Positions 22,380 through 38,337 of a DNA stretch of 64,000 nt are shown here, one piece after another. Under the pieces are notes generated by a model. The model worked only from the letters and a program-made list of their open reading frames with translations. It had not been told where the DNA came from and ran no database searches. The DNA comes from a virus. Each line of letters starts with the position of its first letter. Within the stretch, counting starts at the first letter, position 1. The DNA lies in the IMG/VR virus record IMGVR_UViG_3300020055_000005, positions 1 to 64,000 of that record. One strand, 5' to 3'. Both the position numbers and the translations under genes were made by a program.

Positions 22380-23081
22380 TTAGAAGATTGGGTTCCCCTC
22401 TGAGTCTATTTCAAATAGAAATTCATCAGGGTCGTGGTCAAAATTACTACAATTACTTCCATCAGGATGATGGTATTTTACTTCCATATTAAATGAGATA
22501 CTATAACGATCTTTGTTACTCATGTTAGGTTCAACCATGTGCATCAAACCACTTGGGAACAGAATTAACCTTCCACTTCTTGGTTCGATATTATGACTCA
22601 TTCTAAACCTAGGTGAATTAGGATGGTCAGAAACCACCTTTGTGTCTTTATCTATTAATGAAATGCATCCTTCATCACCCTCTGCATGAACGTAAAATAC
22701 ACCACTATACCAACAACCATTATGTAAGTGTGGAGCATTCCATGCAGAAAAATCGTTAATATTAGCCCATGAGTTACCTATATTTACTGTACACTTAGTT
22801 TGGTCTATACGATGAAACGGTAAAACCTCATCTTTAAATTGTTGTTCTATCTTTCTCATCAATTGACTAAGTGCAGGATTTGATTCACAACCATCTACTG
22901 ATTGCCATCCTGTATATTGGTTAGATACTTGTCTACCAGCAGGGTCTCTCTTTCTCATACCATCCATTGCATCTCTGCACATTTTAAGATAGTCTTCAGT
23001 GACACCTCTACGTTGATCTAGTTCAGGGTCTAATAAATCCTTCTCAAATACAAAGTTTGGAAATAATAATCTAACTGCCAT
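22380..23081 (-). CDS. Putative 2OG-Fe(II) oxygenase (HxH type, TIGR02466-like)
   Basis: WANIN...HLH...SGVFY...LFPS.L.HMVEPN...RYSISFN. Confidence 0.85.
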   Translation of the reverse strand: MAVRLLFPNFVFEKDLLDPELDQRRGVTEDYLKMCRDAMDGMRKRDPAGRQVSNQYTGWQSVDGCESNPALSQLMRKIEQQFKDEVLPFHRIDQTKCTVNIGNSWANINDFSAWNAPHLHNGCWYSGVFYVHAEGDEGCISLIDKDTKVVSDHPNSPRFRMSHNIEPRSGRLILFPSGLMHMVEPNMSNKDRYSISFNMEVKYHHPDGSNCSNFDHDPDEFLFEIDSEGNPIF

Positions 23082-23964
23082 TATCTAAATCTAACTCCAA
23101 TTGATTTTCTGTTTCTTCACTTACAACTTTATGAAAAGGACATTCAGGTGGTGGTGATTCTTCTTTATAAAACTTACCCTTCGGTTGCCAGTATTCACCT
23201 TTTCTATATGCACCCATTTGTAATGATACATTTCTTTCTTCATCACTCAACCCCTTATGTCGACCCCACTCATCCATAGATTTTGCATATTTACCATCTA
23301 AGTGAGTTGTCACACTAGAACGATTCTCTTGAAATGTTTGATGGTCGAACTGCATGTACGATGCATTCCATTCTTCTCTTTTGAAAGGTACAACCTGACA
23401 TAGTGGTGTACCTTCCTTAATGGTAAATGATTTCTGTACCTTTGGATAAAATATGATTTGTGCATTATCCATGTTACTGTTAAATGTATCAGTATCAATA
23501 ATTCCTTGCCATGTTGCAAAGTATTGATTCTGAAATAAGAAGGGGTCTAAGTAGAAACATGAATAGCCTGGAGGTGTAACAATGTTCCAAGGGTTTCTCA
23601 TTTTGAATGCATCATTGACAGGGCCATGAGTACCCATGTATTCAAATGCATTTCCCATTTGTGTATGATTATGTGAAGGTGATGCATAACCATCGTTCTT
23701 ATCTTTAGTATAGAACTCTGTTGAATCGGAATCTGTTCCTACACCACAGTTAACTTCCATATCTCTATTTGCAACGAGATACCATCCCATCTTTAACCAG
23801 TCATCCATTGCAGGACAGGCACGTACTGTTGTTATACGTTTTCCATGTACATCCATACCAACCTTGAGGGTTTTCCACCACTCAGGTTGAACCGTTTTCG
23901 CAAGAACTGGTCTAAAGTTCTTAACCGTGTCCGTATCGTATGAATGGAATTCTATCGTCGGCAC
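23071..23964 (-). CDS. Conserved oxygenase-cluster protein (DUF6065-like)
   Basis: CPAMDDW, NPW.I.TPPGYSC, GIIDTD and GTPL.QV.PFKR pattern. Confidence 0.6.
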   Translation of the reverse strand: MPTIEFHSYDTDTVKNFRPVLAKTVQPEWWKTLKVGMDVHGKRITTVRACPAMDDWLKMGWYLVANRDMEVNCGVGTDSDSTEFYTKDKNDGYASPSHNHTQMGNAFEYMGTHGPVNDAFKMRNPWNIVTPPGYSCFYLDPFLFQNQYFATWQGIIDTDTFNSNMDNAQIIFYPKVQKSFTIKEGTPLCQVVPFKREEWNASYMQFDHQTFQENRSSVTTHLDGKYAKSMDEWGRHKGLSDEERNVSLQMGAYRKGEYWQPKGKFYKEESPPPECPFHKVVSEETENQLELDLDNGS

Positions 23965-24664
23965 TGTACTTCGTCCTCCTGTCTGTTAATTTAACCTCGT
24001 CTCCTCTGATTACTATGGAACGTCTATCCATGTATCTTGCACTTTCATTTGGTGCATCTGCACCATGAGGTATTCTACCATCAAATAAAACTAAACGATT
24101 TGGTACAAATTCCACTTCTGCAATTTGATGGTTTTTAATATGTTCGTTTCTTCCTTGAAGACCCTGTTGTGGTGAATCATAAATTCTTAATGTACCACCC
24201 CATTTAGGGTTCCAAAATCTGTTATAATAATATAAAAAAGATAAGTTCCAATCATCATGATCATCACAATCTGAGTGTGTAGTTCCATGACATCCATGTG
24301 TTTGAGAATTTAAACCTGCATACTGAAATCTAACCCACTCAAATTCAAAATCTGTTTGAAGTTTTCTATTAAACCAAATCGGAACGACTGCATCTAAACG
24401 ATCAATATCTCCTTCAAGATTGTCCCCACGAAGAAAACTTGCACCCCAAAAAGAATGCATGGGTAATCCTGTAGGATTGTCTCCACCGACTTGATTGGTT
24501 TTAGACCAAATTGATGTTCTAGTAAATAGGTTGTCTATGTGGTGATGAAGTTCATCACTTAAATAATTATCTATTACATAAACTTTATCTAAAGGCAACT
24601 CGCAAATTTTAAAAGGTTCGTCTAAGTAGACGACCTCTAATTGATCATCATCCTGTTTGACCAT
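23921..24664 (-). CDS. 2OG-Fe(II) oxygenase (prolyl-hydroxylase-like)
   Basis: HSD...W...WGG...PNRLVLFDGRIPH...RRS. Start placed at MVKQ (24664). Confidence 0.85.
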   Translation of the reverse strand: MVKQDDDQLEVVYLDEPFKICELPLDKVYVIDNYLSDELHHHIDNLFTRTSIWSKTNQVGGDNPTGLPMHSFWGASFLRGDNLEGDIDRLDAVVPIWFNRKLQTDFEFEWVRFQYAGLNSQTHGCHGTTHSDCDDHDDWNLSFLYYYNRFWNPKWGGTLRIYDSPQQGLQGRNEHIKNHQIAEVEFVPNRLVLFDGRIPHGADAPNESARYMDRRSIVIRGDEVKLTDRRTKYSADDRIPFIRYGHG

Positions 24665-25235
24665 TTCCCTGCGTTTCCATATAAGAGTCAGGAGCAAGTA
24701 ACGGTGTTGGTATAACAACACAGTAGTCATCTACTTCCTTTAAGAAATCCTCTCTAGTGTTATTAATTTCATCTTCGATTTGTACATAACAACACCACAC
24801 TGCATCAGCATATTCTGCAACTCTTCTGGCCGCTGACCTTCTAGGATGTGAAGACCCTTCTCTACCTGCAAAAACAACTTCAATCAAATCATCAAAACCG
24901 TATCTATGCACAACCTCTTTAATGAATTCATGACAAATATTATTGATTTCTTGTTTGTGTTGTTGATTTAAATTAAAACCGATAGGTGGTTCAGAGTTTT
25001 CAATGTATAGTTCAATCGCATCCTTTTCTTCATCTGTTAAGGGAAGTGCATCTTGTTTTTCAAAATCTACACCATCTTTCCATTTTACAATCTTAATTTC
25101 TAAGTCTGCGTACACTAACATTTCATAATCAAAACCCAAGTCAGGTGCATCGCAATTGTCAAAACTGTATCTCAAACCATTAGGTTTAGTGATTTGTAGA
25201 TTACCGTCTTCTGTAAATATTAATTCACTTTTCAT
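24648..25235 (-). CDS. Probable tail-fibre assembly/chaperone-like protein (DUF4376-like C-terminus)
   Basis: RYGFDD...AEYADAVW pattern resembling phage fibre-associated proteins. Confidence 0.45.
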   Translation of the reverse strand: MKSELIFTEDGNLQITKPNGLRYSFDNCDAPDLGFDYEMLVYADLEIKIVKWKDGVDFEKQDALPLTDEEKDAIELYIENSEPPIGFNLNQQHKQEINNICHEFIKEVVHRYGFDDLIEVVFAGREGSSHPRRSAARRVAEYADAVWCCYVQIEDEINNTREDFLKEVDDYCVVIPTPLLAPDSYMETQGNGQTG

Positions 25236-25255
25236 TTATTAAATACCTCTTTCAT

Positions 25256-25284
25256 ATTATAACCTGTCATTGACTTTTTGTCAA
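25256..25284 (-). promoter_or_regulatory. Perfect sigma70 promoter TTGACA-17-TATAAT driving the oxygenase cluster
   Basis: Minus strand TTGACA AAAAGTCAATGACAGGT TATAAT, followed by AGAGG RBS and the ATG at 25235. Confidence 0.85.
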
Positions 25285-26849
25285 GCAAGTACTCTCCATT
25301 TTTTATAGATGTCTAAATTATTTATGTGGTCACAATCCATACCTTCTACCCAAGGGCCTCCCCTAGTATAATGGATACCACTGAAATCCCACTTAACATC
25401 AGGGTCATCATATCCTTCTACAAATATGTATTTCTCAGGAATCTTACTGATCTTATCAGTCCATTCAAACTGATGGAGTTGTTTACCTGTCCAAGTGTTC
25501 ACTGTTTCAGGTGTAAGTTTTTTACAATCTTCATGACCATTATTAAATATCATCATACTAGACCATAATTTTTTTGGATAGTCTATGTTCACTTCTCCGT
25601 TAAACTTAGTTTCATCATGTTTATATTGAGGATACTGAATACATGCAACTGCATCATCAGGATGTAGATAATAGAACATAGGTAATAAAGTTTTTTCAAA
25701 AATAAAATCATCATCTATGAAAATACTAAAACCCTCGTAATTTTCTAAGTAAGGAATTAAAAACCTACTGTATGTAAACTCTGTTGATTGATTTGCATAC
25801 TCTCTAGTATATTCAGGTATCTTTGATACATCTAATAGTTTTATTTCAGGTTCGTATCTTATTTCATTAATTAAATGTCCTGCACCTGTATCTTTAAAAA
25901 TACTTTGTTCAATAGAAATTTTAGATACTTCTGCGAGGTTACCATGTCTACTATCGTAACCAATGTAAATGTTTAATGGTTTACCTTTACTTAAACTATG
26001 AACCTTTTTATTCCAATTGTAAATTTTTGGTCTGAACTCTTGCACATTCATCAGGTTACTGTTATATTCTAATGCACCCTGTATCAGTGTGAATGACACA
26101 TTATAGTGTCCACCCATACCCATTCTTTGTCCAAGGTCTTCTCGTAGACTTAATTTGGTTTTCCAATACTCCATGAAATCTTCGAATCCAATGGGTTCTT
26201 GATCGATGGTGTCGTATGCATCTGTAATACACAATTCCATATCAGGGTCACCCATCTCTTCAAAACAACCTGAACGTATAGAGCCTGGATGAATTCTTAG
26301 TTGATATCTACTATCTTTAACTAATTCTATTACTTGTCCTTGTATAGGTGCCCAAAGACCATCTTCTTGTATACTGTGTATTAACCAATGTGCCTTTGCA
26401 CTATGGTAATACATTGAGTTTAAAGATTCTAAATCTCGTTTGGATAATGCATATTCTTGTTCATTGACATGATCTCTTAAATCAATATACTCACCATTTG
26501 TATCGACTGTATCCATACCTGCAATTTGATTTTCATGATTGGGACGAGGTTTTTCAGTCCATCCTACTGGTAAGAATTTATGATAACATGGTGATTCGTT
26601 TTTTAGTCCATTGAACAAAGACCACTTTTCTCTTTTTCGTTCTTTCTCAAAATCTCCCCATTTAAAAATTTTTATAGGGGGTATAATTTCTTCAAAAACA
26701 TATTTAAGAATTGCGTATGTTTCTTTATCCTTGTATTCTTGATCTAATTGAAGTGACCCAAAATGATAATAGGTATCTTTCCAGTCAGTTTTACCTGCTA
26801 GTTCTTCTTTTGCTTGGGATACGGATTCTATTTTAATAAAATTACTCAT
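25281..26849 (-). CDS. Fusion: N-terminal ParB/Srx-like domain plus C-terminal GT-A glycosyltransferase (GT8/CDI-like)
   Basis: C-terminal IYIGYD, STEFTYSRFL.P, DDD, WSS.M.FN, LHQFEW and HYT.GGPW motifs. N-terminal LIHSIQEDGLWAPI...HPGSIR. Confidence 0.8.
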   Translation of the reverse strand: MSNFIKIESVSQAKEELAGKTDWKDTYYHFGSLQLDQEYKDKETYAILKYVFEEIIPPIKIFKWGDFEKERKREKWSLFNGLKNESPCYHKFLPVGWTEKPRPNHENQIAGMDTVDTNGEYIDLRDHVNEQEYALSKRDLESLNSMYYHSAKAHWLIHSIQEDGLWAPIQGQVIELVKDSRYQLRIHPGSIRSGCFEEMGDPDMELCITDAYDTIDQEPIGFEDFMEYWKTKLSLREDLGQRMGMGGHYNVSFTLIQGALEYNSNLMNVQEFRPKIYNWNKKVHSLSKGKPLNIYIGYDSRHGNLAEVSKISIEQSIFKDTGAGHLINEIRYEPEIKLLDVSKIPEYTREYANQSTEFTYSRFLIPYLENYEGFSIFIDDDFIFEKTLLPMFYYLHPDDAVACIQYPQYKHDETKFNGEVNIDYPKKLWSSMMIFNNGHEDCKKLTPETVNTWTGKQLHQFEWTDKISKIPEKYIFVEGYDDPDVKWDFSGIHYTRGGPWVEGMDCDHINNLDIYKKWRVLA

Positions 26850-26881: not shown

Positions 26882-27583
26882 CTATGTAATCGGTGTTGCT
26901 GGCCACTGTTGTGACAATACACCATCCCATCTTGCGACAGGAGTTCTACCTTGTCTAGCATACGTTGCAGGTTGTCTGTTCTGATATGTGAAAGGTGTTT
27001 GACCTTGTCTCGCATACGTACTAGGTTGTCTGTTTTGATATGTGAACGGTGTCTGCGAGTTCGAAGGATTTCTATATGTAAACGGCGACCTGTGATTATA
27101 TGTAGAAGGTTGTCTTGCGTTTGCAATATAAGGATACGGTTGTTGTGCATCCCTAATGTTAGGTTCCTGTGCATTCTTAATAGTAGGTTGTTGTCCATTT
27201 CTAATGTTAGGTTCTTGTGCATTCCTAATATTAGGTTCTTGTGCATTTACTGGATTTCTATATGTAAATGGTGACCTATAGTTATATGTAAACGGTTGTC
27301 TTGCATTTGCACGATATGGAACCCTATATGTAAATGGCACTCTATATGTAAAAGGTTGTCTCGCATTCGCAATATAAGGAACACGATATGTGAAAGGTGA
27401 CTGATAAGTCACAGGTTGTTGTGCGTTAGCAGGGTACCTTGCACTGTATGTGAAAGGAGACTGATAAGTTACAGGCTGTTGAGCATTCGCAGGATATCTT
27501 GCGTTGTAAGTAAACGGTGCTTGGCTGTTGACCGTGGCACGAGCCTGACCTTGCATCGATTGTCTGTGGAAACCTGTTGCCAT
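26882..27583 (-). CDS. Pro/Tyr/Gln repeat protein, zipper partner A2 (233 aa)
   Basis: 26 Pro-delimited units of 6/8/10 aa (aa 24-215); GAGAGG RBS. Confidence 0.85.
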   Translation of the reverse strand: MATGFHRQSMQGQARATVNSQAPFTYNARYPANAQQPVTYQSPFTYSARYPANAQQPVTYQSPFTYRVPYIANARQPFTYRVPFTYRVPYRANARQPFTYNYRSPFTYRNPVNAQEPNIRNAQEPNIRNGQQPTIKNAQEPNIRDAQQPYPYIANARQPSTYNHRSPFTYRNPSNSQTPFTYQNRQPSTYARQGQTPFTYQNRQPATYARQGRTPVARWDGVLSQQWPATPIT

Positions 27584-27601
27584 CTTACTTAATTCCTCTC
27601 A

Positions 27602-28906
27602 TTATTTCGTACTAATATTATGAACCATTAAACTATTTGCAAAGAAGTTATGATGTGGACTGTCTACACCAAAGTGATAAACCATCTCTTCATCTGCTTC
27701 TTCTATAGATTCAATAATTGACTCTGATAAATTTTGTTTTAAAATTGCATTGTTGATGTCTTTAATTGCATCACCGATCTGCAATTCTCCGTTGACTTCT
27801 TTCATGTCATCGGCATGTCCTAATTCTACTTCTTTATTCCAATCTTCTAAATTAATAACCTTCCATCCCTGATCTTCAACATAGAATGGATGACCACCTG
27901 TTACTTTTAACCACCCACCGTCTGTAAGTTGTAGTTTATAAACTTTACACTCTCTTGGTTCCATGACATTTGATACACTTACTCTTTCCAGTTCGTTACT
28001 TTCTAGATTAAGTGAATACACCACATCACCCACTTGGATGTTTTCTATAGGTGTCATTGAAGTGTCACCCATCCAAACTTGTGTTCCAGCAGCGAAACAT
28101 CCTCCTCCACCGTAGAAGTAAACTGCTAAGAAACGGAAAGGATATGTATACGGTTGTTGCGAAGAACTAGGTTGTCTTGCGTTTGCAATATAAGGCACCC
28201 TATATGTAAACGGTGATCTAAATGCAACTGGTTGTCTTGCGTTAGCAATATAAGGTACTCGATATGTGAAAGGAGACCTAAATGCAACTGGTTGTCTTGC
28301 GTTTGCAGGATATCTAGCATTATACGTAAATGGTGTTTGACCGTTTGCAGGATATCTAGCATTTGCAGGATATCTAGCATCATACGTAAATGGTGTTTGT
28401 CCGTTTCTTATATTAGGTTGTTGTGCATTTACAGGGTTTCTATATGTAAATGGAGACCTATGGTTATAGGTAAACGGTGATCTGTGTTGATACGTAAATG
28501 GTGACCTATGTTGATATGTAAATGGTGACCTATGTTGATACGTAAATGGTGATCGACCTGTTGCCTGATACGTGAAAGGTGTTTGTGCGTTCCTTATATT
28601 AGGTTCTTGTGCATTTACTGGATTCTGATATTCTGCAGGTTGTCTTGCGTTTGCAATGTAAGGTGTTTGTGCGTTTGCAATGTAAGGATAAGGTTGTTGT
28701 GCGTTAGCAATATAAGGCGTCTGACTGTTTGCAATGTAAGGATAAGGATTTTGAGTTGCTTCTTGACCTGATGCATTATTCCACCCTGTAGGTGTCTTAA
28801 TATAAATCTGATCAACTGCTTTCCATGCTGTGGGAGTCTTTACCCATGCACCCCTAGTTGCATTCCAACCTGTAGGTGTTTTTACGCTTTGATTACCTGA
28901 TGCCAT
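27602..28906 (-). CDS. Pro/Tyr/Gln repeat protein A1 with three N-terminal KTPT-W repeats and a C-terminal Hint (intein-like) domain
   Basis: Repeats at aa 55-246, then GGGG|CFAAGT...TGGHPFY...VYHF...HNFFANSLMVHN-ISTK. Confidence 0.9.
   Translation of the reverse strand: MASGNQSVKTPTGWNATRGAWVKTPTAWKAVDQIYIKTPTGWNNASGQEATQNPYPYIANSQTPYIANAQQPYPYIANAQTPYIANARQPAEYQNPVNAQEPNIRNAQTPFTYQATGRSPFTYQHRSPFTYQHRSPFTYQHRSPFTYNHRSPFTYRNPVNAQQPNIRNGQTPFTYDARYPANARYPANGQTPFTYNARYPANARQPVAFRSPFTYRVPYIANARQPVAFRSPFTYRVPYIANARQPSSSQQPYTYPFRFLAVYFYGGGGCFAAGTQVWMGDTSMTPIENIQVGDVVYSLNLESNELERVSVSNVMEPRECKVYKLQLTDGGWLKVTGGHPFYVEDQGWKVINLEDWNKEVELGHADDMKEVNGELQIGDAIKDINNAILKQNLSESIIESIEEADEEMVYHFGVDSPHHNFFANSLMVHNISTK
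27617..28099 (-). other. Hint/BIL autoprocessing domain (aa 270-430), no homing endonuclease
   Basis: Cys1, block-B TxxHP, terminal His-Asn; the +1 residue is Ile. Confidence 0.9.
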
Positions 28907-32208: not shown

Positions 32209-33033
32209 CTATGACATCCTAATTTGGAATGTATCCACTGTTGTATTAGTGTTAACAGGTGTAATGAGAAGTCTCATATTACCTGAATTAACGTCTGAAC
32301 TCAATGAGAACAATGATGCGTTTGAATATGTATCACCGTATTGTACGAAGTACGCATTCGACCCATCATTGATCAATAACACTTCTGCGGCATGTGTTCC
32401 TGCACTCGCATGAGTGGCAGTAATCACATACTTCACAGCCTTGTTTGCAACTGCATTAGATGATAAAACTTGATCAGATGTTGTTGCAGTGAAAGTATTT
32501 GCAGTAAAGAAACCTTGAACTAAGTTCGCAGCCTCTGTGATTGCAACTACTTCTACAACGTCACCTGAAATGGCGTTCTCAGTAAGTGTAATAACTGTAC
32601 TACTTGTTGCAGTATAGTCAGAACCTGAGACTAACTTAACACCGTTAATATACACTTGTTCTGTTCCTGAGGAATATGAAAGTGTATTACTATTATCATC
32701 TGCACCTGTAATTGAAGTACCAGTTGATGTAATAGAGTAGGTAAAAGTTACAACCCCTGAAGACGGTTGAGCGGCGAAACTTATTGTTCCACTACCATCT
32801 GTCTGTAGGACTTGACCTGAAGTACCATCTGAAGTTGGGAAAGAGTACGCATCGTTAACAGTAAGAGTTGCAGGATTTGACCCTACTTCAACAATTGAAG
32901 CAGAACCATCATCCTTCTCAGTATAGACTCTACCGTGATAGGTATTAATACCTATCTCACCTAATGATAAATCACTAGTTGATGGTACAGAATTCTGAGT
33001 TGAACTCCTCTTGAATTGAATTACTGTTGCCAT
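32209..33033 (-). CDS. Fibre protein with Mtd-N-like N-terminus
   Basis: VIQFKRS...P...L..GE; VYINGVKL module; shared C-terminal domain. Confidence 0.8.
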   Translation of the reverse strand: MATVIQFKRSSTQNSVPSTSDLSLGEIGINTYHGRVYTEKDDGSASIVEVGSNPATLTVNDAYSFPTSDGTSGQVLQTDGSGTISFAAQPSSGVVTFTYSITSTGTSITGADDNSNTLSYSSGTEQVYINGVKLVSGSDYTATSSTVITLTENAISGDVVEVVAITEAANLVQGFFTANTFTATTSDQVLSSNAVANKAVKYVITATHASAGTHAAEVLLINDGSNAYFVQYGDTYSNASLFSLSSDVNSGNMRLLITPVNTNTTVDTFQIRMS

Positions 33034-33062
33034 TTGCTACTCCTGTTATAGACTAAGTGTTA

Positions 33063-34634
33063 TTAAAATGTTCCACCGTCGATAGCAGTAATGCTTACAG
33101 CTCCTGAACTCACTGTAAAGTTATTTGAATCGTAAGAAGCAATACCTTTTGCAGATGTTGTTGCATCGTCGATAGCAACATCACCTGAAGTTACAGTGAA
33201 ATATGAACCTGAGAATGAAGCAATACCTTTATTTGAGTCTGTTGCATCCTCACCTGCGATAGTGATAGCACCATCTGCATTAGTGATGTCAACACCTTCT
33301 CCAGCTGTTAAAGCTGCAAGTTCCATGTCTCCGTTAGAGCCATTACCAATCATCAATTGACCTGCTGTTGGAGCAGCGCCGTCTAATGATGTGATTGAAC
33401 CTGAAAGTGCAAGACCTGATGCCTCTAAACCACCAAATACTGCGTTACCGACTGAACCTGAGAATACTGATGAAGAGTCAGTTGCATCTTGGATGAACTT
33501 AAACTTACCATCTGAATCGTCCATACCAAAGAAACCAACTTTAGCAGCTGAACCATTGTGCCACTTAAATTTGATACCTCTGTCTAGGTTGTCATCTGAT
33601 GCATCATCACCGATTTCAAATACAGGGTCTGCAACTGAAGTAGTTGTAGAGTTTACAGTTGTAGTTGTACCATTAACAGTTAAGTTTCCTGAAACTGTTA
33701 AGTTACCTGAAGCAGCGATATTAGTTGATGTAATATCGTCTGATGTCAGTGTACCGTCTACTTGAACATTGTTAAATTGAACGTTGTCAGATGTACCAAC
33801 TGACTGACCAATTGCAAATGTAACTGCTTGGTTAGCGGCAGATGTTGTTACACCTGTTCCACCTGTGAAAGTGATTGATTGTGAATCTAAATCGATTGCA
33901 CCAGTACCACTGTCAGCAGCGACATCTAAGTCTTGAGCTGTTACTTGAGAGTCAACGTATGCTTTAACTGATTGTTGTGAAGGAACTTTGACATCTGAAT
34001 CAGAAGACATGTCATCTTCGTCAACAAAGAAGTCAATCATACCGAGTTCAACAGCGCTGTTTGCGATTGTTACAGCACCTGCTGAATCCATTGTTACATC
34101 ACCACTGATTGCTACGTTATCAAATGAATCTGAACCGTCATGGACAAGAATGTGTCCTGATGCAGGGCTAGAAATATCTGAGTCTGTTGCGCCAGCAAGT
34201 GTTGAAGTAGTAGATAGGAATGAAAGTGAACCACTTCCGTCTGTTCCTAGTACTTGGTTTGCACTACCATCTGCTGAAGGTAATGTAAACGTTACATTAG
34301 AAGCTACTGAATCAGGAGCTTTAAGTGCTACATAGTTTACACCATTGTCAGAATCTTCTAATAACTGAACCTCACCACCAGCAGTCGAACCATTACCAAC
34401 TTTAAAGTTAGCAGGTGTTGCAGAAGAACCTGCAAGAATGTCTGTGTAGTATTTACCACCAATCGCATGGATTAATGGGGTTGAGTTATCGGAATCAACT
34501 GATTCGATAAACAGTTTAGCACCAGCACCTGAATTACTTCTGTCCTGAATATACGCTAATTCACCTTCCGATAAATCTGATACTGTAGGCGCAGAAGAAC
34601 CAGTACTTCTTTTAATTTGAATTACTGTTGCCAT
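33063..34634 (-). CDS. Tail fibre protein with Mtd-N-like N-terminus
   Basis: VIQIKRS...L.EGELA; LPSADG..QVL; [11 protein letters not shown]; AT...KGIA repeats; ends IDGGTF. Confidence 0.85.
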
Positions 34635-35036: not shown

Positions 35037-35369
35037 TTAACTCCTCGTTACTCCTGGCGTTACAATCGCTTGTCCTTCTATAACTCTAGTTGTATTTGAA
35101 CCACTAGTTATATTTAGATCATAAACATATCTTCCAGCATTCAATGCAGCAGTTTGAGTGTCATCAAGTGATAATGTAACCTGTCCAGTTGCAGCTGCAA
35201 TACTAGTTCCAAATGTCGCAGAGACAGTAGAAGAACTATATGTTTTTCTTATCTGTGCGGCCGCAGTATATCCATTTAAGTCTAAGATATCACCTGCTGA
35301 GTCAGTCACATCAACAGTAATACTGAAGTCTGTTCCTTGATCTATGTATAGGTTTGCAATTATAGCCAT
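35037..35369 (-). CDS. Virion structural adaptor (Ig-like; QG.DF...YVYD...R..EG...TPGV)
   Basis: Motif pattern typical of small T4-like structural proteins; late promoter at 35375-35382. Confidence 0.75.
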   Translation of the reverse strand: MAIIANLYIDQGTDFSITVDVTDSAGDILDLNGYTAAAQIRKTYSSSTVSATFGTSIAAATGQVTLSLDDTQTAALNAGRYVYDLNITSGSNTTRVIEGQAIVTPGVTRS

Positions 35370-35377
35370 ATAACTAT

Positions 35378-36094
35378 TTATACCTGAGTGTTACTTGGGT
35401 TCTTAGAGAACCTTGCAGTTGGTACAGATTGATGTATTTTTTCTACAGTACCTGTTTTATTTACGTACACTTCACTTAATTTTCTAAGTGTACCATTATC
35501 ATTTACATATACTCCTTTCACTTTTGCAATCGGGCCTACAGTTCTAGTAGTTGAATATGGTGCTTGATATGTAAATGGTGACCTCACCGTGTAAGGGAAC
35601 TGATAGGTTACTTGATATATAAACGGTGATTGTGCATTCGCAATATATGGTGATTGTGCATTTGCAGTGACCCTATATGTTGACGGTGATCTATGTTGAT
35701 ACGTAAACGGATTCCTTGCGTTTGCAGGATTGGGTTGTTGTGCATTCCTAATATTAGGTTCTTGTGCATTTGCAATATAAGGACTTGGATTTTGTGCCTG
35801 ATATGTATTAGGTTGTCTTGCGTTTCCAGTCGCTCTATAAATTAAAGGTTGTCTTGCATTTCTAATATTAGGTTCTTGTGCAGATGTAGGGTTTCTATAT
35901 GTAAACGGAGACCTATGGTTATAGGTGAAAGGACTCTGTTTAGTTGCACGATATGTAAATGGTGACCTTGCAATATACGGATAAGGTGTTTGACCAATAA
36001 GAGGTTGTCTTGCCTGATAAGTCGTTTGACCTTGCGCTTGATAAGTTGTAGGTTGTTGTGCAATATATGGTATTTGATAGTATCCTGTTGCCAT
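35378..36094 (-). CDS. Pro/Tyr/Gln repeat protein, zipper partner B2 (238 aa)
   Basis: MATG start; even-spaced Pro units; C-terminal VYVN..G repeats. Confidence 0.85.
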   Translation of the reverse strand: MATGYYQIPYIAQQPTTYQAQGQTTYQARQPLIGQTPYPYIARSPFTYRATKQSPFTYNHRSPFTYRNPTSAQEPNIRNARQPLIYRATGNARQPNTYQAQNPSPYIANAQEPNIRNAQQPNPANARNPFTYQHRSPSTYRVTANAQSPYIANAQSPFIYQVTYQFPYTVRSPFTYQAPYSTTRTVGPIAKVKGVYVNDNGTLRKLSEVYVNKTGTVEKIHQSVPTARFSKNPSNTQV

Positions 36095-36095
36095 T

Positions 36096-37256
36096 TTATA
36101 TTCCTAATGCCTGTCCATAAGTTGCGTTTAATGATATCATACCATGACTATATGTTGATGTATATACATTATTACTTGAATCCACACCCTTAACTGTGAA
36201 ACTAACACCTTGTGCTTGTGTCCATGTAGTACCATTAGGGTTTGGGCCGTTTGGTGTTACACATGCCTTCCACAGGAATTGTCTTGCACCACTAGTTGGA
36301 ACACTATAGTAAGTACCTGAACTATATCCAGCGTTAGTTGGTAATGGCCCTGAACTATAAGAGTAACAATAACTTGAACTACAGTCTTTACCACTACATG
36401 CTTGACTTGATACATCATATTTTACTGTAAATGTGGAACTGGTTGTCAATAGACCTTGATATAAAATGTAATCAGAATAAACAGTCGCCTGATATTGATT
36501 TGTATAACCAAACCACAATGCCTTAATAGAACTTTGGGCAGTTGCATTTGAGAACTCCATTGAACACCCTACCTCAGGTGGAGGGTTTGTGGATGCTCTT
36601 GATTGCGTAGTATACCAGTACCCAGCTGAACCAGTACCAGGCCCCCAAACTTGTTCTAGTGGGTCATAGATATATGCAGCTGGTTGTCTTGCATTATAAG
36701 ACGATCTTGCGTTTGCAATGTATGGATAAGGTGTTCTTCCTATAAATGGAGACTGATATGAATATGGTGTTTGACCAATTGTAGGCACTGGTTGTTGTGC
36801 GTTACTAGGTGATTGATATGACTGTTGTGCATTTCTAATCACTGGTTGTTGTGCATTTGTAGGATTTCTATATGTAAACGGTGACCTATAGTTGTACGTA
36901 AACGGTGATTGTTTATTTGCTGGTACCTGATATGTAAATGGTGTCTGCGAATTTGCAATATAAGGATTCGCTTGTTGTGCCGAATATGTAAATGGTGATC
37001 TGTGTTGATAAGTAAACGGAGACCTAACAGTGTAATTGAAAGGTTGTTGTGCGTTTCTTATAAACGGAGATTGTTGAACAGCAGGTGTCCTATATGTTAC
37101 AGGTTGTCTGTTGTTGTATGTTAGGGGTTGTCTTGCCTGTGCAGGTGTTCTACCAGTTGCCTGTTTGGTTTCAGGTGATTGTGCGTTAACTACTGCTTGC
37201 CCTTGATAGGGTTGTTGGAAAGTCGTCCCTGTGTTTATATAGATTTCATCAGCCAT
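36096..37256 (-). CDS. Pro/Tyr/Gln repeat protein B1 with C-terminal Cys-containing globular domain
   Basis: Repeats at aa 17-199; non-repetitive S/T/Y/G-rich domain at aa 200-386. Confidence 0.85.
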   Translation of the reverse strand: MADEIYINTGTTFQQPYQGQAVVNAQSPETKQATGRTPAQARQPLTYNNRQPVTYRTPAVQQSPFIRNAQQPFNYTVRSPFTYQHRSPFTYSAQQANPYIANSQTPFTYQVPANKQSPFTYNYRSPFTYRNPTNAQQPVIRNAQQSYQSPSNAQQPVPTIGQTPYSYQSPFIGRTPYPYIANARSSYNARQPAAYIYDPLEQVWGPGTGSAGYWYTTQSRASTNPPPEVGCSMEFSNATAQSSIKALWFGYTNQYQATVYSDYILYQGLLTTSSTFTVKYDVSSQACSGKDCSSSYCYSYSSGPLPTNAGYSSGTYYSVPTSGARQFLWKACVTPNGPNPNGTTWTQAQGVSFTVKGVDSSNNVYTSTYSHGMISLNATYGQALGI

Positions 37257-37257
37257 A

Positions 37258-38337
37258 TCATATCACAAACCATAAGTGTCCATTAGACGTACTTCCTACA
37301 CTTGACGGTGCAGAAGATACTGTCTCGTAATCTAACACTACATTATCACTATCCGTTTTAATTCCGTTAGAAGTGTTGACACTCATAGTTGTCCCTGTAA
37401 GGTCTAGACCATCTCCACCTGTTACTGAATTCGAACCTGTAAACGATATAGTGTTATTCGCATCATCATAAGATACAGTGATATTAGTATGTGTACCAGC
37501 AGCAATTGCAGTTGCAACTGCATCTTGTGCCTGTTCGTCAGTGTAGTTTGCAGGTGCATCAGCGGATTCCCAATTCGTTGTTGAAGAGTTGTAGATTAAC
37601 ATCTGACCATTATTAGGAGATGATGCATCTACGTTACCCAACGATGCTAAATTGTGATTTGTTATACTGGATACGGTTCCTGTTACATTACCGACAACAT
37701 TACCCTGTACATCACCTTTAACTAATGCACCACTTGGTAAGTTGATATGATTTTGGAAATATACTTCACCATCAAATTCGATAGGTGCAGAAGTAGTTAA
37801 GAGTGTTGTCTTAGTTGCACCGTCACCATTGAAGATTAATCCATTGTCGTTTGTATTATAAATTGTATTAGCGGCAGTTTCAGAAAAGTAACCTACAGAT
37901 GCACTTCCTTGTCCTGTAAATCCTAAGTAAGAACCAGTAAATGAATAAATTACAATCTTATCTGAGTTTGCAGCTGCTGAAACTAGGTCTATTCTATTAT
38001 ATGTTCCATCACCTTGAACATTACCTAATGAATAGTCATCACCCTCAAATAGGTGAACACCATTCTTAAAAACTTGTATTCTGTTTGCAACAAATTTTAG
38101 AGTATATCCAAAGTTATCTACACCAGTAAATCTTGTATTACCGTTAGTTCCATCTGAACCAGTAAAGATATACTCTTGTAAGAAGAAAGACTTGTCTTCA
38201 AGACTGTTTAATGCATCGATAATATTACTTTTTTCAGTTGTGCGTAATCCTGATATCGCACCGACATCATTTGCAAGATCGTTGTACTGTCTTCTAAAGT
38301 CTTCTATCGTACTGTGATTGTCAACTGTCCTAGCCAC
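37258..38337 (-). CDS. Fibre protein (gp9/10-like N-terminus)
   Basis: TIEDFR..YN, NIIDALN, VFKNG module; C-terminal SAPSS....GHLWFVI. Confidence 0.75.
   Translation of the reverse strand: MARTVDNHSTIEDFRRQYNDLANDVGAISGLRTTEKSNIIDALNSLEDKSFFLQEYIFTGSDGTNGNTRFTGVDNFGYTLKFVANRIQVFKNGVHLFEGDDYSLGNVQGDGTYNRIDLVSAAANSDKIVIYSFTGSYLGFTGQGSASVGYFSETAANTIYNTNDNGLIFNGDGATKTTLLTTSAPIEFDGEVYFQNHINLPSGALVKGDVQGNVVGNVTGTVSSITNHNLASLGNVDASSPNNGQMLIYNSSTTNWESADAPANYTDEQAQDAVATAIAAGTHTNITVSYDDANNTISFTGSNSVTGGDGLDLTGTTMSVNTSNGIKTDSDNVVLDYETVSSAPSSVGSTSNGHLWFVI

What the first reader, a model, noticed from the sequence alone, without database searches (positions are those of the whole stretch)
35378..37256. 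Second zipper pair (pair B) obeying the same code
SEEN: the 386-aa and 238-aa proteins keep i+j=201 over about 170 residues (P28-P173 to P192-P9, plus flanks). Examples are VNAQSP-FTYQAP, LTYNNRQP-YIANAQSP, FIRNAQQP-FTYQHRSP, FTYQHRSP-NIRNAQQP, FTYSAQQANP-SPYIANAQEP, FTYNYRSP-NIRNARQP, FTYRNP-TSAQEP, TNAQQP-FTYRNP, VPTIGQTP-YPYIARSP and YSYQSP-LIGQTP. Where a Pro is missing, summed lengths still match (12=6+6, 12+6=8+10, 6+16=16+6). As in pair A, the short partner starts MATG and its Gly4 faces a Tyr (Y197). The unit order differs from pair A. INFERENCE: replication in a second locus makes chance very unlikely, and the distinct 'barcodes' would make the A and B pairs largely orthogonal.
Basis: partly seen in the sequence, partly recalled or inferred. 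Interest (0 to 1): 0.9.

Follow-up and report, generated by a model that had tools for sequence, protein, structure and literature searches.

The report
Mirror-complementary two-protein phage fibre shaft
Two neighbouring genes of an uncultured marine T4-like phage encode repeat proteins whose units match in length and are of opposite type when one is read backwards. This rule holds in about 60 related gene pairs and in natural single-chain fusions, so the two chains most likely pair head-to-tail into a long thin fibre, a design I could not find described.

Summary
B1 (36096-37256, 386 aa) and B2 (35378-36094, 238 aa) keep the register i+j=201 from B1 P28/B2 P173 to B1 P192/B2 P9. At that offset 17 of B2's 27 prolines coincide, against 12 at the next best offset; 1 of 5000 unit-shuffles reaches 17.

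I trained a facing-residue score on other phages' pairs and ignored proline. It peaks at the same offset with 111 bits (null 31±5). Swapped A/B pairs score at null level.

Across 60 distinct pairs from IMG/VR there are 47 different unit-length architectures, spanning 154-532 aa. In each, the partner carries the mirrored series, so the two genes show compensating insertions and deletions.

Natural single-chain proteins occupy the same syntenic slot. They start like B1 and end like B2, joining exactly the ends that the antiparallel model puts together.

Pro-Pro spacings are even in 3945 of 3947 cases, and covariation is confined to one residue parity. Both point to an extended beta ladder.

Best reading: a split hairpin fibre shaft in the phage's host-recognition cluster, with a conserved base and a variable tip. 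Physical binding and the 3D structure are not shown; structure prediction failed. I found no precedent in papers, PDB or GenBank phages. Earlier agents of this scan found the same family on other DNA.

The parts
36096..37256 (-). B1 gene, 386 aa: long partner (N-terminal base strand, arm, C-terminal tip domain)
   Evidence: ORF; unit parsing. No Pfam or PHROG family.
37209..37256 (-). B1 aa 1-16 (MADEIYINTG..FQQP): conserved base strand, faces B2 aa 200-185
   Evidence: M1-N8, G10 and Q14-Y17 are invariant in 9 homologues. Single-chain forms start with the same motif.
36660..37208 (-). B1 arm, aa 17-199: Pro-terminated 6/8/10-residue units, in register with B2 at i+j=201
36099..36659 (-). B1 aa 200-386: distal tip domain, predicted all-beta, rare and variable
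   Evidence: It starts exactly where B2 Met1 faces B1. Only 4 homologues were found among 5.8 billion proteins, plus loci L001-L006. AF2 gives pLDDT 65, pTM 0.64, 12 strands. No PDB match; weak matches to uncharacterised phage proteins.
35531..36094 (-). B2 arm, aa 1-188 (starts MATGYY): the return strand of the duplex
35378..35530 (-). B2 aa 189-238 plus stop: conserved base module (AKVKGVYVN..VYVN..EKIHQSVP)
   Evidence: Many columns are invariant in 9 homologues. It overhangs B1 Met1 by a constant 30-38 aa in all B-type pairs. The same motif in the L016 protein is modelled as a small beta meander, pLDDT about 77. It hits phrog_13729 at 1.4e-5.
36092..36110 (-). B1 stop / B2 start junction: TAA, one base, ATG, with AGGA 9 nt upstream of the ATG (translational coupling)
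   Evidence: Sequence. The upstream gene is coupled to B1 in the same way, TGA-T-ATG.
35037..35369 (-). 110-aa LtfC-like beta-sandwich protein, invariably next to the B locus
   Evidence: PF23926 at 2.3e-4 (below its cut-off) and phrog_3304 'L-shaped tail fiber protein assembly' at 5e-23. Present directly downstream in 30 of 30 B-type loci at 62-90% identity.
37258..38337 (-). 359-aa upstream neighbour, conserved beside the B locus
   Evidence: Found in 30 of 30 B-type loci at 35-54% identity. No Pfam family.
26882..28906 (-). Sister pair A (A1 27602..28906, 434 aa, with C-terminal Hint domain; A2 26882..27583, 233 aa), same code, register i+j=269

Best explanation
B1 and B2 are the two arms of a split hairpin fibre. 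The roughly 165-190-residue arms run antiparallel in the fixed register i+j=201, as an extended period-2 (beta-ladder-like) duplex.

Each unit of one chain faces a unit of equal length and opposite type on the other chain: xTYxxRSP faces NIRNAQxP or YIANAxQP, FTYRNP faces xNAQxP, and a 10-mer faces YP plus an 8-mer. Large residues face small ones (Tyr3 faces Ala5). The variable, specificity-giving positions lie on one face.

B1's N-terminal strand and B2's C-terminal VYVN module sit together at one conserved end, the likely attachment to the virion. B1's variable all-beta domain sits at the other end, the likely receptor-binding tip.

What is shown: the mirror register, the code, its co-variation between partners, the fusions and the synteny. 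What is inferred: physical pairing, beta geometry, virion location and tip function. The oligomeric state is unknown; a trimer of duplexes, as in the T4 gp37 needle, is possible.
For: (a) Register. 17 of 27 Pro coincide at k=201 and 1 of 5000 shuffles reaches this. With proline ignored the score is 111 bits at the same k, against a null of 31±5.

(b) Co-variation between partners. 58 other adjacent pairs all show the mirror register, z 4.6-12.7. There are 47 distinct unit-length architectures with spans of 154-532 aa, and the numbers of '10-8' and '6-6-8' modules change together in both chains. Cognate partners coincide at 0.86 of Pro and non-cognate at 0.53; the cognate partner is best in 49 of 60 cases.

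(c) Natural fusions. Single-chain proteins (L016, L017, L027, L028, L031) start MADEIYIN like B1, end with B2's VYVN/EKIHQ module, and are self-antiparallel (z 4.7-6.8). They join exactly the ends that the model places together. They occupy the same syntenic slot as B1+B2.

(d) Modular ends. The base overhang is constant (+30 to +38 in B types, -35 in A types) whatever the arm length (k=185-596). The other end varies: a Hint domain, a Gly-rich tail, or domains of 140-276 aa.

(e) Period 2. 3945 of 3947 Pro-Pro spacings are even. Mutual information between facing units is confined to odd positions around the antidiagonal.

(f) Context. The genes lie among fibre-like genes downstream of a 2363-aa protein and next to an LtfC-like tail-fibre-assembly homologue. 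In pelagimyophages the region between VrlC and neck gp14 is described as the host recognition cluster (PMC7029224); that the 2363-aa protein is VrlC is my guess, not tested. B1 and B2 are translationally coupled.

(g) There is no inverted DNA repeat, so the symmetry is at the protein level.
Against: There is no experimental or modelled structure; AF2 models the repeat arms as coil with low confidence. Pair B is imperfect: 10 of B2's 27 Pro have no Pro opposite.

The mutual-information pattern partly reflects unit sub-families, so it does not prove residue contacts. Virion location is inferred from gene neighbourhood only, and no cultured phage in GenBank carries a homologue.

Phage fibres are normally parallel homotrimers, so this geometry has no solved precedent of the same kind.
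Confidence: 0.7

Rival explanations
1. The two chains do pair, but not as an extended ladder along the fibre axis. Instead their units interleave as rungs of a two-start cross-beta solenoid or beta-helix, with strands perpendicular to the axis, somewhat like the octapeptide triple beta-helix of T4 gp5C.
For: Units of 6-10 residues ending in Pro resemble strand-plus-kink units. Recurrent super-repeats '6-6-8' (20 aa) and '10-8' (18 aa) could be turns. T4 gp5C uses octapeptide units (PMC3004832).
Against: The order of unit lengths is irregular in many pairs, including B, which would give a solenoid of changing cross-section. Covariation is centred on residue-level facing positions. The base-to-tip modularity and the fusions fit either geometry, so they do not decide between them.
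Confidence: 0.15
2. The mirror order is a relic. An ancestral palindromic hairpin gene was split, and today the two proteins work separately, for example as two different homomeric fibres.
For: Single-chain forms exist. All four window proteins share a self-complementary block.
Against: A relic would decay. Instead 47 different architectures keep the mirror, with compensating unit insertions and deletions in both genes. Facing residues co-vary. The cognate partner is best in 49 of 60 cases.
Confidence: 0.05
3. The paired proteins are not virion fibres. They form some other extended structure, such as a host-surface or intracellular scaffold made during infection.
For: There is no virion proteomics. 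The composition is Q/N/Y-rich and amyloid-like.
Against: Neither protein begins with an obvious signal-peptide-like N-terminus (by eye only; MADEIY.., MATGYY..). They lie inside the late structural block among fibre-like genes. Their modular build of conserved base and variable tip is typical of receptor-binding fibres.
Confidence: 0.08
4. Chance or low-complexity artefact, or a by-product of DNA-level inverted repeats.
For: Repeat proteins with even unit lengths give many partial coincidences; null means are 10-12.
Against: Permutation tests, replication in 58 further pairs, and no inverted DNA repeat between the genes.
Confidence: 0.01

Closest known systems
Needle domain of the T4 long-tail-fibre tip, gp37 (PDB 2XGF; Bartual et al. 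2010, from my own knowledge; iron sites mentioned in PMC6957217)
   Same: It is a phage receptor-binding fibre in which the chain runs out to a distal head and comes back. Ascending and descending extended strands lie antiparallel, and both ends of the shaft segment are at the virion-proximal side.
   Different: gp37 is one chain; its homotrimer gives six strands. The needle is about 15 nm long and held by His-x-His iron sites. It has no Pro-terminated unit repeats, no two-type pairing code and no split into two genes. B1 and B2 have no HxH motif and no sequence relative in the PDB.
Streptococcal antigen I/II (SpaP/SspB) stalk
   Same: It is a long hairpin stalk in which two different repeat regions pair antiparallel and present a domain at the tip.
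   Different: There an alpha-helix (Ala-rich repeats) wraps with a polyproline-II helix (Pro-rich repeats) within one chain, using a few long repeats. Here there are two chains, period-2 units of 6-10 residues, and a variable unit order mirrored in the partner.
Antiparallel coiled-coil arms of SMC/Rad50 and heterodimeric leucine zippers (established knowledge)
   Same: Two segments of co-varying length pair antiparallel, with functional domains at base and tip. Specificity is encoded by complementary residues at periodic positions.
   Different: Those are alpha-helical heptads. Here the period is 2, there is a Pro every 6-10 residues and no heptad pattern.
Triple beta-helix of T4 gp5C and other trimeric fibre shafts (PMC3004832)
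   Same: It is a phage fibrous beta structure built from short octapeptide-like units.
   Different: It is a parallel homotrimer of one chain type, with no antiparallel partner and no unit complementarity.

Membership tests
T4 gp37-type needle | Sequence or profile similarity to gp37 needle or other solved fibre proteins | tested here: not met
   phmmer against all PDB chains gave 0 hits for B2 and only a chance hit for A2, at E up to 10.
T4 gp37-type needle | Periodic His-x-His iron-binding motifs along the needle | tested here: not met
   Neither B1 nor B2 has an HxH motif; His occurs singly, as in FTYQHRSP.
T4 gp37-type needle | Out-and-back (hairpin) topology with a distal head domain | tested here: inconclusive
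   The mirror register, the tip domain at the turn and the natural single-chain fusions fit this topology, but there is no structure.
Hint / intein splicing domain (PF14890) | Pfam match above the gathering score, with Cys1 and terminal His-Asn | tested here: not met
   For pair B there is no Hint match in B1 or B2. It is met only in the sister protein A1 (aa 280-430, 45.1 bits against a cut-off of 35.8; C270..VHN).
Collagen-like phage fibre | Gly-X-Y triplet repeats | tested here: not met
   The units are 6, 8 or 10 residues ending in Pro, with no Gly every third residue. Only 35% of Pro spacings are multiples of 3, while 99.9% are even.
Curli CsgA/CsgB-type amyloid subunits | Sec signal peptide and Curlin repeat (Pfam) | tested here: not met
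   No Pfam family at E up to 0.1. The N-termini MADEIY.. and MATGYY.. do not look like signal peptides (by eye only).
Mirror-complementary repeat pairs of marine T4-like phages (the family defined here and in earlier notes of this scan) | Adjacent co-oriented genes; Pro-terminated even-length units; partner carries the reversed length series; T-type units face N-type units | tested here: met

The most novel reading that the evidence does not exclude
These proteins use a natural, readable pairing code for extended polypeptide chains. Units of two complementary types and three lengths act like letters, and their order (the 'barcode') sets both register and partner choice. One phage can then build two or more orthogonal heteroduplex fibres of freely variable length (154-532 residues seen). 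In the sister pair A, a Hint domain sits within 1-10 residues of the point that faces the partner's N-terminus and may seal the duplex into a covalent hairpin.
Probability: 0.5. Interest if true: 0.92.

Novelty: categorically new. Interest (0 to 1): 0.86.

Why it matters
If the two chains really zip together as the sequences imply, this would be a new fibrous protein architecture. It would be an antiparallel hetero-duplex whose register and partner specificity can be read from the sequence, as in coiled coils, but built on a period-2 (beta) scaffold.

It would explain how abundant marine T4-like phages, relatives of pelagimyophages and cyanomyophages, build host-recognition fibres of adjustable length with exchangeable tips. 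It would also turn two 'hypothetical protein' families found in hundreds of marine viral contigs into annotated structural genes.

The many natural variants form a ready-made data set for learning the code, which could be of use for designing orthogonal protein fibres.

Tried and rejected
Complex prediction of B1(1-205) with B2(1-238), using 9-row alignments, returned 'no answer': ipSAE 0.02, partner pLDDT under 50. This is evidence neither for nor against binding.

AF2 on the natural single-chain form from L016 (531 aa, no alignment) gave pLDDT 38. The arms were modelled as coil and only the C-terminal VYVN module was modelled, so it says nothing about the arms.

The AF2 model of the B1 tip domain (pLDDT 65) had no PDB match at E<=0.001. 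It matched only uncharacterised phage proteins in BFVD, TM 0.3-0.5, so no function could be assigned.

The ESM Atlas look-up of B2 gave only viral hypothetical clusters, and the Atlas model is poor, pLDDT 0.47.

megablast and tblastn against GenBank phages found nothing. The queries were the B region, A2, B1, the B2 base module and the A1 N-terminus. The low-complexity filter may hide the repeats, but the non-repetitive parts also found nothing.

The weak Pfam 'Cementoin' hits in A1 and A2 (below cut-off) were rejected as compositional.

A DNA-level inverted repeat as the cause of the symmetry was rejected: only direct repeats are present. A parallel alignment of the partners was rejected: best parallel Pro coincidence is 13 for B and 16 for A, against 17 and 27 antiparallel.

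Literature searches found no description of such proteins. The terms covered pelagimyophage fibres, Hint domains in fibres, antiparallel beta-ribbon fibres and LtfC.

Full report
**What is there.** The window is the late structural region of an uncultured marine T4-like myophage. It is an IMG/VR record of 151 kb. The nearest GenBank terminase is 57% identical (Phage C48C1), followed by cyanomyophages at about 44%.

All genes around the finding lie on the minus strand. B1 (36096..37256, 386 aa) is followed after a one-base spacer by B2 (35378..36094, 238 aa). Both are rich in Pro, Gln and Tyr. Both consist of units that end in Pro and are 6, 8 or 10 residues long. Neither matches a Pfam family. 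A second pair of the same kind lies 7 kb away: A1 at 27602..28906 and A2 at 26882..27583. These four are the only such proteins in the genome.

**Check of the observation.** I counted prolines of one protein that fall opposite prolines of the other, for every antiparallel offset.
- B1/B2 peaks at i+j=201 with 17 of 27. The next best offset gives 12 and the best parallel offset 13.
- A1/A2 peaks at 269 with 27 of 30; the next best gives 15.
- Shuffling the order of the partner's units gives 9.6±1.4 for B (1 of 5000 reaches 17) and 11.7±1.8 for A (0 of 5000).

In pair B some Pro boundaries are missing or displaced by 2-6 residues. The cumulative lengths still agree throughout, so there is no net indel over 164 residues.

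**The same code, tested without proline.** I collected 110 related loci from IMG/VR. They hold 58 distinct adjacent pairs of repeat proteins. All 58 show the antiparallel register, with z of 4.6-12.7 against unit shuffles.

Among 732 distinct facing unit pairs, units of the xTY type never face each other. Instead:
- FTYRVP faces ANAQ(S/Q)P.
- FTYRNP faces V(N/S)(A/G)QxP.
- FTYQNRQP faces YIANAQQP.
- STYQHRSP faces NIRNAQTP.
- The 10-mer xTYARQGxTP faces YP+YIANxQTP.

I built a log-odds matrix of facing residues from those other phages only and set all proline terms to zero.

| Pair | Score (bits) | Offset k | Unit-shuffle null |
|---|---|---|---|
| B1/B2 | 111 | 201 | 31±5, max 47 |
| A1/A2 | 202 | 269 | 41±7, max 65 |
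| A1/B2 (swapped) | 45 | 165 | 36±6, max 59 |
| B1/A2 (swapped) | 39 | 213 | 35±6, max 57 |

The swapped pairs are at the level of their shuffles. So pair B obeys the same code, and the two pairs look orthogonal in silico. One shared self-complementary block, FTYNxRSP-FTYRNP-xNAQxP-xIRNAxQP, occurs in all four proteins. It pairs with its copy in the cognate partner and could permit short cross-contacts.

**Co-variation between partners.** The 60 pairs, window included, have 47 different unit-length architectures, 35 different offsets, and in-register spans of 154 to 532 residues. Chain 1 read N to C and chain 2 read C to N give the same series of lengths. The number of '10-8' and '6-6-8' modules varies between phages, and it varies together in both genes.

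On average 0.86 of the possible Pro coincidences are realised with the cognate partner and 0.53 with non-cognate partners. The cognate partner is the best of 60 in 49 cases, and the exceptions are near-identical variants. These are compensating insertions and deletions in two separate genes. I cannot explain them without a constraint that couples position i of one chain to position k-i of the other.

**Natural fusions.** In several contigs the slot between the conserved 359-aa upstream gene and the LtfC-like downstream gene holds one gene instead of two. These proteins (L016 531 aa, L017 491 aa, L027/L031 508 aa, L028 476 aa) begin MADEIYIN.. like B1. They end with the AKVKGVFVN..VYVN..EKIHQ module of B2.

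They are self-antiparallel, z 4.7-6.8. In L016, residues 1-120 run in perfect register with residues 499-380. L030 starts like A1 and ends like A2, but its self-antiparallel signal is weaker (z 3.7). The fusions join the C-terminal end of the long partner's arm to the N-terminal end of the short partner's arm. These are exactly the ends that the antiparallel model brings together.

**Modular ends.**
- In all B-type pairs the short partner overhangs Met1 of the long partner by 30-38 residues. In all A-type pairs the long partner overhangs by 35. Both hold whatever the arm length (k from 185 to 596).
- These ends are the most conserved parts.
- The other end is variable. It can be a Hint domain whose Cys1 lies 1-10 residues beyond the position facing the partner's Met1, a short Gly-rich tail, or unrelated domains of 140-276 residues.
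- B1's tip domain (aa 200-386) has only four homologues in 5.8 billion proteins. It is modelled as an all-beta domain, pLDDT 65, with no informative structural neighbour.

A conserved base with a hypervariable tip is the usual layout of receptor-binding fibres; this last point is inference.

**Geometry.** Of 3947 Pro-to-Pro spacings inside the paired regions, 3945 are even, while only 35% are multiples of three. Mutual information between facing units is confined to odd positions. T-unit positions 1, 5 and 7 co-vary with partner positions 7/5, 3/1 and 1/3, that is, the facing residue and its same-face neighbour. The even positions (T2, R6, P8; I2, N4, Q6, P8) are conserved.

A period of two, with prolines always at the same parity, is what an extended antiparallel beta ladder predicts. 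All Pro would then sit in the same class of position, where the missing NH costs nothing. This is inference. The mutual-information signal is partly carried by unit sub-families, and a cross-beta solenoid with interleaved rungs is not excluded.

If fully extended, about 165-190 residues would span roughly 55-60 nm. The oligomeric state is unknown.

**Context.** The pair lies downstream of a 2363-aa protein and among fibre-like genes. The next gene, 35037..35369, is an LtfC-like or 'L-shaped tail fiber protein assembly' homologue, present in 30 of 30 B-type loci.

In pelagimyophages the region between VrlC and neck gp14 has been described as a hypervariable host recognition cluster in which tail fibres could not be identified (PMC7029224). 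Whether the 2363-aa protein is VrlC was not tested. There is no inverted repeat at the DNA level.

**Comparison with known systems.** I found no sequence relative with a solved structure, no homologue in GenBank phages and no description in the literature searched.

The nearest analogues are topological:
- the out-and-back needle of T4 gp37 (one chain, HxH iron sites, about 15 nm);
- the hairpin stalk of streptococcal antigen I/II (alpha-helix with PPII helix);
- antiparallel coiled-coil arms such as those of SMC proteins.

None has Pro-terminated period-2 units, a two-type unit code, or a split into two genes with mirrored unit order.

Earlier notes of this scan report the same family on other genomes, with follow-up agents reaching the same reading (e1-5703444, e1-5703451). 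Those are not independent evidence. The tests here were run afresh on this window.

**Verdict.** The 'same code' and 'orthogonal barcode' readings are supported by sequence statistics, partner co-variation, natural fusions and synteny. Physical pairing, beta geometry and virion location remain to be shown, and the structure predictors gave no usable model of the arms.

Noticed in passing
window 27605-28099 (-), A1 aa 270-434: The C-terminal Hint/intein splicing domain of A1 (PF14890, 45 bits) follows GGGG and ends ..VHN-ISTK, so there is no Cys/Ser/Thr at +1. In 8 Hint-bearing pairs from other contigs, Cys1 lies 1-10 residues beyond the residue that faces the partner's Met1. Other A-type long partners have no Hint domain and end in a short Gly-rich tail.
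   Followed up: partly
window 22380-26849 (-): A gene block directly follows the A pair in about 80 A-type loci. It holds a 522-aa protein (phrog_28018, weak GT8 hit), a 195-aa protein, a 2OG-Fe(II) oxygenase (23921-24730, PF13640), a 297-aa protein and a second 2OG-Fe(II) oxygenase (22380-23081, PF13759). This suggests hydroxylation and/or glycosylation of the repeat proteins, which I did not test.
   Followed up: partly
L016:4001-5596, L017:4001-5476, L027/L031:4001-5527, L028:4001-5431, L030:3908-5317: These are natural single-chain versions of the B pair and, more weakly supported, of the A pair (L030). They are self-antiparallel at the ends, with a less regular central part that takes the place of the tip domain.
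   Followed up: yes
window 35850-35947 and 36823-36920: A 98-nt direct repeat, 79% identical, is shared by B2 and B1. It encodes the self-complementary block FTYNxRSP-FTYRNP-xNAQxP-xIRNAxQP. The same block occurs in A1 (aa 145-172) and A2 (aa 98-125), and in each pair the two copies face each other.
   Followed up: partly
window 35037-35369 (-): The 110-aa LtfC-like gene is better conserved (62-90% identity) than the fibre genes it follows, and is present in 30 of 30 B-type loci. It is a possible assembly factor or adaptor for the duplex fibre.
   Followed up: partly
window 32209-34634 (-): Two consecutive fibre-like proteins (523 and 274 aa) both start MATVIQ(I/F)KRS.. and have no Pfam family. 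They are conserved downstream of the B locus in most related contigs.
   Followed up: no
window 28745-28906 (-), A1 aa 1-54; window 35381-35530 (-), B2 aa 189-238: The base modules are short internal repeats: three copies of (V/I)KTPTGW.. in A1 and two copies of VYVNxxGTxxK in B2. They sit on the long partner in pair A and on the short partner in pair B, yet at the same end of the antiparallel duplex.
   Followed up: partly
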